A stretch of DNA of 64,000 nucleotides from Anolis carolinensis (taxonomy: Eukaryota): positions 220,759,971 through 220,823,970 of the forward strand of contig NC_085843.1 of NCBI RefSeq assembly GCF_035594765.1, in the 5' to 3' direction. The position numbers were made by a program. The first letter of the stretch is position 1, and each line of letters opens with the position of its first letter. Below, one piece after another: positions 60,201-63,200 of this stretch.

Positions 60201-63200
60201 CTGCGCTGACCATACAATGCATTCTAGGAGTCTACACTCACCATATACTTGACCTTGCAATGCATTATGAGGGTATACACTGACTATATAATGCATTCTA
60301 GGAGTTATTGAACATATATTGCGTTCCAGGCGTTACTGACCATATGATGCATTGAAACTGCATTAGAGAGCAGTGTAGAGTGTGTCCTCCCCCCTCCCCC
60401 CTCCCCGAAACATTCCAAACAACTGCCACTTGTGGCGCGCGGGGAGAGCCAGTTCCTCCCTCGTATCTCGCTGTCAAGCGGTCTCGAGCCCCCTCCCTCT
60501 TCCTCCTCCCCCTCCCCCTCCTGCTTTCCCTTATCGCTCGCTCTGAATGGGCTCCGTCACGCGCGCGACGTGAGGCGTGGGCTGCTGCTCTTCCCCCTCC
60601 CCGCGCAGACAGTGTCCCCACGTAACCCTCGTCTCAGAGAGAGAGAAGGAGAAAGCACCCTACTAACGCGCTGCCTCTTCCCTTATAGAGTCAAAAGGCA
60701 CTTCCGTGTGTGTGTGTGTGTGTGGAGACAGACTGGCCCCCTCGAAGGCTGGAGGAGGAGGCGGAGGCCGAGCCCACAGAGGCTCCCCTTTGTTTGGGGG
60801 AAAAGGGCTGGGCGGACTTCGTGGAGGGGAGGGGAGGGGGAGGGGCGCGTGAGGCGAGGGAGTGGAATCCCGGCGCTCCCATTGGCTGGGCCCTTCCTGG
60901 AGGCCTTTCCGTGCCTGAGGCGCCTGTGGGGAAGGAAGGAGGGGGGGGAAAGAGGGAGGGAAGGAAGGAGTGGGGAGGCATGCCCGGCACGTCCCCAGCG
61001 CTGGCAGCAGGCGAAGCGGCTCGCCCTTGCGCCTCCTTGTAACACAACAAGCGACACCATGGCCGCAGACCCCCGAACGCGGCGCCCCTGTGGAGGCTCC
61101 TTCTGCAGGAGGAGGCAAGATGGCTACCTTCTTGTGGCTCTGCCCGCCCAGGATGGAGCCCGGCCTCGCTAGGCGTCCTCTCCGCGCGGGGCGGGCGGGC
61201 AGCAGGACCGCTGGTGGGTGCCCTTCTCCCCCCTCTCCTTCTTCCCCACCTTTTTGAAGTTCTGCCCTCTTTTCCTCAACAACAACAACAACAATAATAA
61301 TAATATCCAAACTGTATTATGAGAACTGTCAATATTTTGTTGGTGCCTCAAAAGACTCACCCTCTGCCCTGTCTTTGGTGTCTCCTTCTAGGTGCTCACT
61401 GACAACAAAAGGCCTCAGAAGAGGAAGGAGGAAAGAGTTTTGAAGGTAATCTTTCCATTGGTTGCGGACCAGTTATGTCAGGCATGGGCAAACTTCGGTT
61501 CTCCGGGTGTTTTGGACTTCAACTCTCACAATTCCTAACAGCCTACCGGCTGTTAGGAATTGTGGGAGTTGAAGTCCAAAATACCTAGAGGTCTGAAGTT
61601 TGCCCATGCCTGAGTTGCACAGATCTGGTTGTCTCTGTCCTGGGATAGAAAGTGCAATGCTCTTTTGACCCCCCCCCCCCCCAAATGATGCTGGAGTGGT
61701 AATGTTATTGTGGAGATTGGCATCCCTTTTCCATGTGGTTAAAACCTAACGTCTCCTCATAAGCTGGCTGACATGTCATTTATGAAGGCTGCAGTCCGAA
61801 GCTGCTGCCGATGCAAAGCACAGTTTGCTTTGAAGTCACATTTGCGCCTGAGAAAATATTTGCCCTGGAAGGAAAAGAGAGCTGTTCAGCAGTGGAGCTC
61901 TCTCTCTGCCCCAAAGTGTGGTGGAGGCTCCTTCTTTGGAGGCTTTTAAACAGAGGCTGGATGGCCATCTGTCAGGGGTGCTTTGAATGCGATTTTCCTG
62001 CTTCTTGGCAGAATGGGGTTGGACTGGATGATCCACAAGGTCTCCTCCAACTCTATGATTCTATGATTTCATTGCCAGTGTGATGCGGGACCTGAAACTT
62101 TTGTGTGCCTGTGAAATGTGACTTCGTATATATTTTGTGTTCAAGCTGTCCCTCCTTCCCATGTCAATTGCTGGATCCCCTGGTGGCGCAGTGGATTAAA
62201 CGCTTGTGCCTCCAGGACTGCTGACCGAAAAGTCAGCAGTTCGAATTCAGGTAGCGGGGTGAGCTCCCATCTGTCAGCTGTAGCTCCCATGCAGGGACAT
62301 GAGAGAAGCCTCCTACAAGTATGGTAGAACATCAAACATCCAGGCATCCTCTGGGCAATGTCCTTGCAGATGGCCAATTCTCTCACACCAATGGCACATT
62401 TCAGAAGAATGAGGCTTGAAATGGCGTAGTTGTTTTGAAACAATATTTTTCCTTTCTTAATATATTCTTGTTCAACTATGTGTAGATGTGTGCGCGCGCA
62501 TATATACATATATATGTCTGTAAACACACTGGAATGTCAGGAGTCGTTTGAGAAGCTGGTTTCTTTGCGGTGGCCAAAGTGTCCAGCAGCAGACAGCCCT
62601 CATGCGCCCCCATCCAGTTTTTTTTTGTGCATGTGGCCCTTTATAAATGACAGCCCTGTTCTCTTTCTTCCCTGAGTCGGGGAATTCCTGGGCACGTGCA
62701 GAGGAGGAAATCCCTGTTTACAAAGGGGAATCCCCATTCCATAGCAGGGAACCCAGGCCCCTCCCACAGGAGCCTTGCGCCATGTGTCATTGGAGCTTCC
62801 CAGAACTCTGAGTCTGCGCTGTTTGCTACCAAGGTTCCTGGTGGATACTGGGCACTCCTTGGCATATTTGCATTGGAGTGCTTGCCGTGGCATAATATGT
62901 AGCATGATGAAGCCCTGGCGCTACTTGGTAACTGAGTTGGAGCACTACGTTTTACGTCCTTGGAAACTCTTGTGGGTGTCATTGTTATGTGGCGAGGCTT
63001 ACTTGGCATGAGCTGTGGAATAGTGAGTGTTGTTATGCTAGTCATCCTGTTTGTACCTCCTCACTTAATAAAGGAATGTATCGTTAGGCAGAACACCACA
63101 GAAGATAAGTATTTATAAACAAAATGAATGAGTTCTTTAAAAGTTACGGATAGGTGTTCAGAAAATTAAATATTCTTTAAGACTTTAAACATGGTGGGAA

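What the first reader, a model, noticed from the sequence alone, without database searches (positions are those of the whole stretch)
60380..61391. Intragenic CpG island where mammals have the promoter of the CXXC-less short TET1 isoform
Seen: the strongest CpG island of the TET1 region lies downstream of the CXXC exon and just upstream of the 54-bp exon. It has CCAAT, GC-box, ETS-like and YY1-like motifs and a candidate donor CTG|GTGGGT at 61213/61214. Established: mouse and human have a somatic TET1 isoform (TET1s/TET1-ALT) that starts in intron 2 and lacks the CXXC domain. Inference: the long/short isoform switch predates the mammal-reptile split. ATGs in the island (61059, 61120, 61153) would not be in frame with the exon via that donor, so translation would start further downstream, as in mammals.
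Basis: partly seen in the sequence, partly recalled or inferred. Interest (0 to 1): 0.65.

Follow-up and report, generated by a model that had tools for sequence, protein, structure and literature searches.

The report
Candidate internal TET1 promoter in anole
A CpG-rich island just upstream of the small third exon of the green anole TET1 gene probably drives a shorter TET1 lacking its CXXC DNA-binding domain, as in mammals, but no transcript evidence for the anole itself was available here.

Summary
The window is Anolis carolinensis TET1. An 834-bp CpG island (60380-61213; GC 0.665, CpG o/e 0.64, against 0.17 in the rest of intron 2) lies between the CXXC exon (ends 52069) and the 54-bp exon (61392-61445).

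"Strongest island" is only marginally true, because an island at 15.7-16.2 kb is denser.

New evidence: the RefSeq gecko model TET1 isoform X2 lacks the CXXC exon and has a unique first coding exon joined to the 54-bp-exon homologue. The end of that exon matches the island at 61089-61130 (11 of 14 residues; 0 of 300 shuffles reach the score). CXXC-less models also exist for A. sagrei, other squamates and turtles.

In human, the first exon of the short isoform lies 211 bp upstream of exon 3. Here the candidate intron is 178 bp.

Its authors found no conservation in chicken or zebrafish. A. carolinensis has no short isoform among the records read here. The gecko-implied donor (61133/61134) would put ATG 61059 in frame.

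An internal promoter is likely (about 0.6). An origin before the mammal-reptile split is unproven.

The parts
50135..52069 (+). Coding part of the TET1 CXXC exon (645 codons). It ends in phase 0 at the donor AAG|GTAAGA.
   Evidence: 100% identity to A. carolinensis H9GVA7. zf-CXXC PF02008 at residues 588-627, E 5.5e-05, below the curated cut-off. Donor seen.
59064..60353 (.). Minisatellite of about 28-bp units that abuts the 5' edge of the island.
   Evidence: Tandem Repeats Finder and self-BLAST.
60380..61213 (+). CpG island core: 59 CpG, GC 0.665, o/e 0.64. Proposed internal promoter plus first exon.
   Evidence: Single-copy in the window. No Rfam match inside it. No Pfam family in its 4 long open frames. 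No protein relative of its 274-codon frame among 1.84 billion representatives.
60385..60602 (+). C-rich (pyrimidine) tracts with GC skew of -0.3 to -0.55.
60796..60970 (+). G-rich (purine) tracts with GC skew of +0.25 to +0.49. The skew changes sign at about 60650-60700.
60881..60885 (-). CCAAT box.
   Evidence: Not above chance (346 of 500 shuffles).
60701..60706 (-). ETS-like CGGAAG.
   Evidence: Not above chance (322 of 500 shuffles).
61189..61198 (+). Two overlapping GGGCGG GC boxes. Others lie at 60810 (+) and 61144 (-).
   Evidence: Four observed against 1.66 expected; 44 of 500 shuffles reach that.
61059..61172 (+). ATG in a strong Kozak context (gacaccATGg) with a 37-codon frame closed by TAG at 61170-61172. 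It is an upstream ORF if the 61213 donor is used. It is in frame with the 54-bp exon if the 61133 donor is used.
61089..61130 (+). Segment homologous to residues 15-28 of the gecko (Heteronotia binoei) TET1 isoform X2, which are the last 14 residues before its junction with the 54-bp-exon homologue.
   Evidence: tblastn E 5e-05, the best hit in the whole window. Local score 66 against 300 shuffles with mean 36.5 and maximum 48. Seen again.
61117..61124 (+). YY1-like AAGATGGC, inside the gecko-conserved segment. It contains ATG 61120.
   Evidence: 12 of 500 shuffles. YY1 ChIP-seq binding at the human TET1-ALT promoter is reported in PMC5737541 section 19.
61131..61139 (+). Weak donor CTT|GTGGCT (61133/61134) implied by the gecko junction. 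Phase 0 from ATG 61059.
   Evidence: (score -3.66, 63rd percentile).
61211..61219 (+). Strong candidate donor CTG|GTGGGT (61213/61214), at the exact 3' edge of the island.
   Evidence: score 3.94, best of 49.
61214..61391 (+). Candidate 178-nt intron, pyrimidine-rich, with an (AAC)n/(AAT)n run. The acceptor is ttctag|GTG.
61392..61445 (+). 54-bp TET1 exon (18 codons, phase 0-0).
   Evidence: Its 18 residues stand at this place in the A. carolinensis RefSeq protein XP_062832313.1. The homologue is present in 13 of 19 squamate models and skipped or absent in 6.
61473..61613 (.). Palindromic MITE-like repeat in the next intron. It flanks the feature and is not part of it.
   Evidence: Self-BLAST copies at 34080-34219, 15576-15767, 4299-4413 and others. 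Rfam mir-5408 match of 64.7 bits, below the gathering score of 90.

Best explanation
The island is probably a germline-unmethylated internal promoter, together with the first exon of a TET1 transcript that leaves out the CXXC exon.

Proposed mechanism: Pol II initiates inside the island. The GC-skew flip suggests a nucleosome-free centre near 60650-60700, and the start lies upstream of about 61050 if the gecko model is a guide. The first exon ends at 61213 (best donor) or 61133 (gecko-equivalent donor) and is spliced to the 54-bp exon at 61392.

With the 61213 donor, the three island ATGs are upstream ORFs, and translation starts at the exon-4 methionine, which lies outside the window. That is how the A. 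sagrei isoform X2 starts. With the 61133 donor, ATG 61059 adds 25 unique residues, as in the gecko isoform X2. Either way the protein lacks the first roughly 657 residues, including the CXXC finger, and keeps the dioxygenase domain.

Shown here: the island, its position, the donor, the reading frames, the homology to the gecko exon, and the existence of CXXC-less models in relatives.

Inferred: hypomethylation, transcription initiation, which splice is used, and the resulting protein in A. carolinensis.
For: (1) CpG retention is specific to this spot: o/e 0.64 against 0.17 in the rest of intron 2 and 0.25-0.36 in another GC-rich stretch.

(2) The geometry equals the human case. Human exon 1a lies 211 bp upstream of exon 3 within a 996-bp fragment that has promoter activity (PMC5737541). 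Here the distance is 178 bp.

(3) Residues 15-28 of the gecko TET1 X2 model (XP_060097131.1) match 61089-61130, and the next-best hit in the window is the 54-bp exon, in the same order and strand. Of 7 alternative N-termini tried, only this one matches.

(4) Models without a CXXC motif among the stored proteins, named, are:
- A. sagrei X2
- Sceloporus undulatus (three transcripts, one protein)
- Paroedura picta X3
- Heteronotia binoei X2
- Crotalus tigris X3
- Liasis olivaceus 2-T3
- Mauremys reevesii X3
- Chrysemys picta X3
- Caretta caretta X2
- Macrochelys 3-T4

(5) The donor at 61213/61214 is the best of 49 GT sites and sits at the island's edge.

(6) A YY1-like 8-mer lies in the conserved segment, and YY1 binds the human TET1-ALT promoter.
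Against: - No expression, TSS or methylation data for A. carolinensis were available.
- Among the 5 members of its protein cluster, the A. carolinensis RefSeq protein (XP_062832313.1, 2236 aa) carries no isoform label and no short form appears.
- Most CXXC-less models start at the exon-4 methionine or later. They would equally arise from skipping of the CXXC exon from the canonical promoter, so they do not locate a promoter.
- Only one model (the gecko) ties the island to a transcript. It is an automatic prediction whose mRNA and genome I could not read.
- The gecko-equivalent donor is weak in the anole.
- The conserved 42 nt could be a regulatory element and not exon sequence.
- The search with gecko residues 1-45 found no second protein with that N-terminus: 2 hits among 193 candidates, namely itself and one at E 9.2.
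- Long et al. 2013 (PMC3583005, abstract and passages read) warn that computed CpG islands in cold-blooded vertebrates often lie away from promoters.
- The named motifs are not above chance, apart from the YY1-like 8-mer.
Confidence: 0.6

Rival explanations
1. The island is an orphan intragenic non-methylated island. It would act as an enhancer or a Polycomb/Trithorax docking site for TET1 regulation and would not start a TET1 transcript.
For: The island signature shows only germline hypomethylation. No short isoform appears among the A. carolinensis proteins read. The conserved 42 nt contain a factor-binding motif. Most CXXC-less models can be explained by exon skipping.
Against: The gecko model places the homologous sequence inside an exon joined to the 54-bp-exon homologue. 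A top-ranking donor sits at the island edge, 178 bp from the acceptor. The position equals that of the proven human promoter.
Confidence: 0.2
2. The island is the promoter of a separate transcript, either an antisense or divergent non-coding RNA or a nested gene, and not of TET1.
For: The GC skew is negative in the left half and positive in the right half, as at divergent CpG-island promoters. Long open frames occur on both strands.
Against: There is no Pfam family in the 4 frames. The 274-codon frame has no relative among 1.84 billion proteins. There is no Rfam family in the island. The best minus-strand donors lie in the minisatellite units and repeat with them. A frame of this length is reached by 7 of 500 shuffles, which is only mildly unusual.
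Confidence: 0.1
3. The island is a GC-rich, low-complexity stretch between two repeats. It would be a computed CpG island without function and would be methylated in vivo.
For: Purine or pyrimidine tracts make up 169 of the 834 bp. The island is flanked by a minisatellite and a microsatellite. Long et al. give a caution about computed islands.
Against: Without the tracts the o/e rises to 0.79. CGCG occurs 11 times against 3 expected, and 0 of 500 shuffles reach that. Part of the island is conserved with a gecko.
Confidence: 0.07
4. On the evolutionary claim: squamates and mammals each evolved a promoter upstream of exon 3 independently, so the switch does not date from before the mammal-reptile split.
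For: Good et al. found the 1 kb upstream of exon 3 conserved in placentals but not in chicken or zebrafish, and proposed a recent origin. The human site is not a CpG island. Turtle X2 and X3 models use a different short first coding exon that joins exon 4 directly, and it has no match in the window.
Against: The same intron, the same side of the same small exon and a similar distance (178 against 211 bp) are involved. There is a YY1 motif here and YY1 binding in human. CXXC-less models are found in both squamates and turtles. Promoters often keep their position while losing alignable sequence (general knowledge).
Confidence: 0.5

Closest known systems
Human TET1-ALT / mouse Tet1s internal promoter (Good et al. 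2017, PMC5737541, passages and section 19 read; Zhang et al. 2016, recalled and seen only as a citation)
   Same: It lies in the intron after the CXXC exon and directly upstream of the small exon 3. The first exon is non-coding or nearly so, and is spliced over a roughly 200-bp intron (211 bp in human, 178 bp candidate here). Translation is predicted from exon 4. YY1 is involved, as binding in human and as a motif here. The product lacks CXXC and keeps the catalytic domain.
   Different: The human site is stated not to be a CpG island, whereas this is a full island. Sequence homology was not tested. No TSS or expression data exist here. In the gecko model the alternative exon is coding, and in the anole an in-frame ATG exists for one of the two donors.
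RefSeq model TET1 isoform X2 of Heteronotia binoei (XP_060097131.1, P0023)
   Same: The last 14 residues of its first coding exon match 61089-61130 (11 of 14). It is followed by the 54-bp-exon homologue and has no CXXC exon.
   Different: Its first 14 residues have no match here. The junction falls at a weak donor in the anole, one codon further on. It is an automatic prediction, and its mRNA and genome were not seen.
RefSeq model TET1 isoform X2 of Anolis sagrei ordinatus (XP_060624877.1, P0020)
   Same: It comes from the same genus, is CXXC-less, and starts at the exon-4 methionine. That is what the 61213 donor with upstream ORFs predicts.
   Different: Its 5' exon is unknown to me. It could stem from skipping of the CXXC exon and not from this island.
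Promoter CpG islands / non-methylated islands of vertebrates (Long et al. 2013, PMC3583005, abstract and passages read)
   Same: Length, GC content and CpG o/e meet the usual criteria, and there is a GC-skew flip.
   Different: The methylation state is not known, and the island is intragenic.

Membership tests
CpG island (sequence criteria) | At least 200 bp, GC at least 0.5 and CpG o/e at least 0.6. The stricter version, recalled, is at least 500 bp, GC at least 0.55 and o/e at least 0.65. | tested here: met
   60380-61213 is 834 bp with GC 0.665 and o/e 0.64. 60430-61220 is 791 bp with GC 0.669 and o/e 0.66. The stricter criteria are met only just.
Non-methylated island | Unmethylated CpGs in vivo. 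| not testable with these tools
   Only CpG retention speaks for it. Anole Bio-CAP data are named in PMC3583005 as GSE43512 but cannot be read here.
TET1s / TET1-ALT internal promoter | Lies in the intron between the CXXC-coding exon and the next small exon, within about 1 kb of that exon. | tested here: met
   The CXXC exon ends at 52069, the island is 60380-61213 and the small exon starts at 61392.
TET1s / TET1-ALT internal promoter | Transcription starts there (CAGE, ESTs, 5'RACE, H3K4me3). | not testable with these tools
   No anole transcript or chromatin data are held.
TET1s / TET1-ALT internal promoter | The first exon is spliced to exon 3. | tested here: inconclusive
   A strong donor lies 178 bp upstream of the acceptor. 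The gecko model joins the homologous segment to the exon-3 homologue. No anole junction was seen.
TET1s / TET1-ALT internal promoter | The product lacks the CXXC domain and starts in exon 4. | tested here: inconclusive
   This holds for A. sagrei X2 and 3 other reptile models that start at the exon-4 methionine (P0020, P0022, P0024, P0034). No A. carolinensis short protein was found. With the 61133 donor the start would be in the island.
TET1s / TET1-ALT internal promoter | Sequence homology to the mammalian promoter or exon 1a. | not tested
   No mammalian genome is at hand and human sequence is barred. Good et al. report no conservation in chicken or zebrafish. Their supplementary figures could not be seen.
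TET1s / TET1-ALT internal promoter | A developmental switch: the long form in pluripotent and germ cells, the short form in somatic tissues. | not testable with these tools
   No data are held.

The most novel reading that the evidence does not exclude
The long/short TET1 isoform pair, driven by a promoter directly upstream of exon 3, would be an ancestral amniote feature and not a placental novelty as proposed in 2017. Its sequence would have turned over while its position and a YY1 site were kept. In squamates the promoter would be a full CpG island, and the short form could carry its own N-terminal peptide encoded by the alternative exon.
Probability: 0.35. Interest if true: 0.6.

Novelty: new member of a known kind. 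Interest (0 to 1): 0.45.

Why it matters
TET1s/TET1-ALT is the main somatic TET1 form in mouse. Its loss of the CXXC finger changes how it is targeted (PMC5844914, passages read).

The only statement on its age that I found is that the promoter region is not conserved beyond placental mammals. My searches found no paper on a non-mammalian TET1s. These searches cover only the held library.

A lizard counterpart would move the origin of the isoform switch back to early amniotes. It would also offer a non-mammalian model for studying it. And it would be a case of a promoter kept by position while its CpG-island character differs between lineages.

The claim is modest in scope. Automatic RefSeq annotation already lists CXXC-less TET1 models in reptiles.

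Tried and rejected
- **Repeat origin of the island.** Rejected: there is no second copy in the window.
- **Structured RNA gene in the island.** Rejected: Rfam finds nothing there.
- **Protein-coding exon of another gene.** There is no Pfam family in 4 frames and 0 relatives of the 274-codon frame among 1.84 billion representatives. The frame length is reached by 7 of 500 shuffles.
- **Motif enrichment as evidence.** Rejected for CCAAT, ETS and the GC box, which are not above shuffles.
- **Other alternative N-termini** (Phrynosoma P0021, Crotalus horridus P0146, unnamed P0151, Chrysemys P0171, Macrochelys P0172, Caretta P0174). None matches the window.
- **More proteins with the gecko N-terminus.** The search returned only the query itself and one hit at E 9.2. 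It sees cluster representatives only, so this is weak evidence.
- **Literature on non-mammalian TET1s.** Nothing was found. One search was swamped by its general terms.
- **Joined (spliced) model.** The candidate first exon joined to the 54-bp exon was not sent to any search. Exons were handled one by one. The CXXC exon was searched and the island frame. The 18-codon exon is too short for a search of its own and was compared by alignment with stored proteins.
- **Human sequence.** No human contig or protein was met among the listed rows or used. Comparison with human or other mammalian intron 2 stayed undone.
- **Closed sources.** The closed collections (metagenome and viral contigs) and paper supplements were not consulted. 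The Good et al. supplementary figures S1, S2 and S4 (conservation, exon sequences, factor binding) may bear on the homology question.
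Full report
**What the window is**

The 645-codon open frame at 50135-52069 is 100% identical to Anolis carolinensis TET1 (H9GVA7, P0001). It carries the CXXC finger at residues 588-627 (E 5.5e-05, below Pfam's cut-off, but the Cys pattern is plain). It ends in phase 0 at the donor AAG|GTAAGA, 52069/52070.

The 54 bases at 61392-61445 encode 18 residues. They stand at exactly this place in the current A. carolinensis RefSeq protein XP_062832313.1 (P0124, 2236 aa). Their homologue is present in 13 of the 19 squamate TET1 models. 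It is skipped or absent in 6, among them the older Ensembl-derived anole model P0001 and several 'X2' isoforms. The small exon is therefore real, and it is also a cassette exon.

The intron between the two exons is 52070-61391. Exon 4, with the methionine that starts the short forms, is not in the window, since their N-termini find no match there.

**The observation**

The window has no N, GC 0.42 and CpG o/e 0.29.

The island proper is 60380-61213 (834 bp, GC 0.665, o/e 0.64), and the next CpG is at 61465.
- The rest of the intron has o/e 0.17. Another GC-rich stretch (36.6-37.3 kb) has 0.25-0.36. So GC content alone does not keep CpGs in this genome.
- Seven purine or pyrimidine tracts (169 bp) inflate the GC content. 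Without them the island still has GC 0.657 and o/e 0.79.
- CGCG occurs 11 times against 3 expected, and 0 of 500 shuffles reach that.
- The island is single-copy in the window. It is boxed in by a 28-bp-unit minisatellite (59064-60353) and by a microsatellite and a palindromic MITE-like repeat downstream.
- 'Strongest island' is only marginally true. It has 61 CpG in the best 1-kb window against 58 for an island at about 15.4-16.4 kb. That other island is denser (40 against 35 CpG per 500 bp; GC 0.69; o/e 0.69). It may be the canonical TET1 promoter. It lies about 45 kb upstream, and Good et al. place the human internal site about 40 kb from the TSS. I did not test this.

**Motifs, donor and ATGs**

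Counts of CCAAT, CGGAAG and GGGCGG are within what dinucleotide shuffles give: 346, 322 and 44 of 500 shuffles reach the observed counts. Only the 8-mer AAGATGGC (61117) is uncommon, at 12 of 500.

On an approximate donor weight table that I recalled (not a calibrated tool), CTG|GTGGGT at 61213/61214 scores 3.94. That is the best of the 49 GT sites in 60380-61391 and the 98.9th percentile of the 3320 GT sites in the window. It is also above the true donor of the 54-bp exon, which scores 3.12.

Through that donor none of the three ATGs is in frame. ATG 61059 runs into TAG at 61170-61172. ATG 61120 and ATG 61153 share a frame that ends at a TGA inside the 54-bp exon.

**What mammals have**

This comes from Good et al. 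2017 (PMC5737541), of which I read passages and section 19.

- TET1-ALT starts in intron 2. Its exon 1a is spliced over 211 bp to exon 3.
- Translation starts in exon 4.
- A 996-bp fragment upstream of exon 3 has promoter activity.
- YY1, MYC and NF-kappa-B bind there by ChIP-seq.
- The marker CpG is 'not in a CGI'.

Greer et al. 2021 (PMC7842754, passages read) show two H3K4me3-marked promoters in mouse neurons.

The position of the anole island is therefore that of the mammalian promoter, with a very similar exon-to-exon distance (178 against 211 bp). The island character is a difference, not a shared trait.

**New evidence from relatives**

A search with the exon-4 part of the anole protein gave 373 hits at E no higher than 1e-20, of which 120 were listed. 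Together with two cluster look-ups, it turned up TET1 models with no CXXC motif. They fall into five groups.

- Starting at the exon-4 methionine: A. sagrei ordinatus X2 (XP_060624877.1, 1557 aa), Sceloporus undulatus (1562 aa, three transcripts with one protein), Paroedura picta X3 and Mauremys reevesii X3.
- Starting at a later methionine: Crotalus tigris X3 and Liasis olivaceus 2-T3.
- With a 9-residue alternative start joined to exon 4: Chrysemys picta X3 and Caretta caretta X2.
- With an alternative start running into the 54-bp-exon homologue: Macrochelys 3-T4.
- With a 28-residue alternative start followed directly by the 54-bp-exon homologue: Heteronotia binoei X2 (XP_060097131.1, P0023, 1630 aa).

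That last start is the key. Its residues 15-28 (CRGFFCRRKQDGYL) match the window's translation at 61089-61130 (CGGSFCRRRQDGYL), 11 of 14 identical. This is the best hit in all six frames of the 64 kb (E 5e-05). The second-best hit is the 54-bp exon, downstream on the same strand. The local score of 66 compares with a mean of 36.5, an sd of 3.1 and a maximum of 48 in 300 shuffles of the peptide.

Of 7 alternative N-termini tried, only this one matches. The first 14 gecko residues have no counterpart here.

The conserved 42 nt contain the YY1-like 8-mer. So what is conserved may be a binding site near the start of transcription as much as a peptide. Without gecko DNA I cannot tell which.

**Consequence for the splice and the start codon**

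The gecko junction falls after the residue that corresponds to 61130. The nearest GT in the anole is at 61134 (CTT|GTGGCT), one Leu codon further on.

Through that donor, ATG 61059, in the context gacaccATGg, is in frame with the 54-bp exon and would add 25 residues. I read that frame inside a script only. The joined model was not searched or used further. This donor is weak, scoring -3.66, at the 63rd percentile.

The A. sagrei X2 model starts at the exon-4 methionine. An annotation pipeline would not choose that start if an open in-frame ATG lay upstream (inference). For the gecko the alternative exon is coding.

**What weakens the case**

- I could consult no transcript, TSS or methylation data for the anole.
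- Among the 5 members of its protein cluster, the A. carolinensis RefSeq protein has no isoform label and there is no short form.
- Models that begin at or after the exon-4 methionine would also result from skipping the CXXC exon from the canonical promoter, so they prove a CXXC-less reading frame and not an internal promoter.
- The one model that points to the island is an automatic prediction.
- No second protein shares its N-terminus among cluster representatives. Two hits came from 193 candidates: the query itself and one at E 9.2.
- Long et al. 2013 (PMC3583005, abstract and passages read) warn that computed islands in cold-blooded vertebrates often miss promoters. They also found lizard non-methylated islands to have mammal-like CpG o/e.

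**Other readings**

- The four long open frames of the island have no Pfam family.
- The 274-codon frame has no relative among 1.84 billion representatives, and its length is reached by 7 of 500 shuffles.
- Rfam finds nothing in the island.
- The GC skew runs from -0.55 (60450-60549) to +0.49 (60750-60849) and crosses zero near 60650-60700. By recalled knowledge of skew at CpG-island promoters, this suggests a divergent promoter centred there. It is a hint only, since the skew rests largely on the purine and pyrimidine tracts.

**Verdict**

The functional reading, an internal promoter and first exon for a CXXC-less TET1, is the best explanation.

The evolutionary claim remains open. Position, spacing and a YY1 link favour common origin. 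The published lack of conservation, the missing island in human and the different turtle first exons favour independent origin or heavy turnover. I put common ancestry at about 0.35-0.45.

It is a new member of a known kind. Automatic annotation already lists such isoforms in reptiles, but my searches of the held library found no paper that discusses them.

Paper supplements and the closed contig collections were not seen.

Noticed in passing
window 15400-16400: A second CpG island is denser than the one in question (15741-16200: GC 0.69, o/e 0.69, 38 CpG). It has GC boxes and lies about 45 kb upstream. It may be the canonical TET1 promoter and exon 1. It is flanked by copies of the MITE-like repeat and by SINE-like sequence.
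   Followed up: partly
window 61473-61613 (also 34080-34219, 15576-15767, 4299-4413, 59455-59578, 39671-39756, 53246-53329): A palindromic MITE-like repeat occurs in many copies in the window. The copy at 61505-61586 matches Rfam mir-5408 on both strands (64.7 and 57.7 bits, below the gathering score of 90), so this miRNA family looks repeat-derived.
   Followed up: partly
window 59064-60353: A 1.3-kb minisatellite with units of about 28 bp and higher-order periods of 94-351 bp runs right up to the island's 5' edge. Each unit carries ATG|GTGAGT-like strings on the minus strand, which score as strong donors by chance.
   Followed up: partly
window 34199-34316 (+): A 5S rRNA match lies above Rfam's gathering score (48.4 bits against 38), next to a MITE copy. 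It may be a 5S-derived SINE or a pseudogene.
   Followed up: no
window 61392-61445: The 54-bp exon is a cassette exon in squamate annotation. It is skipped in the older anole model H9GVA7 and in the X2 isoforms of Crotalus tigris, Ahaetulla prasina, Paroedura picta and Erythrolamprus reginae.
   Followed up: partly
window 50336-50338 (codon 68 of the CXXC exon): There is one residue difference from the UniProt anole protein: Met in the window and in RefSeq XP_062832313.1, Leu in H9GVA7. This is a difference between assemblies or an allele.
   Followed up: no
window 18332-19003 (-) and 45508-46086 (+): There are retrotransposon remnants. The first is a reverse-transcriptase fragment (RVT_1, E 7.7e-06, below the cut-off). 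The second is an open frame with no Pfam match.
   Followed up: no
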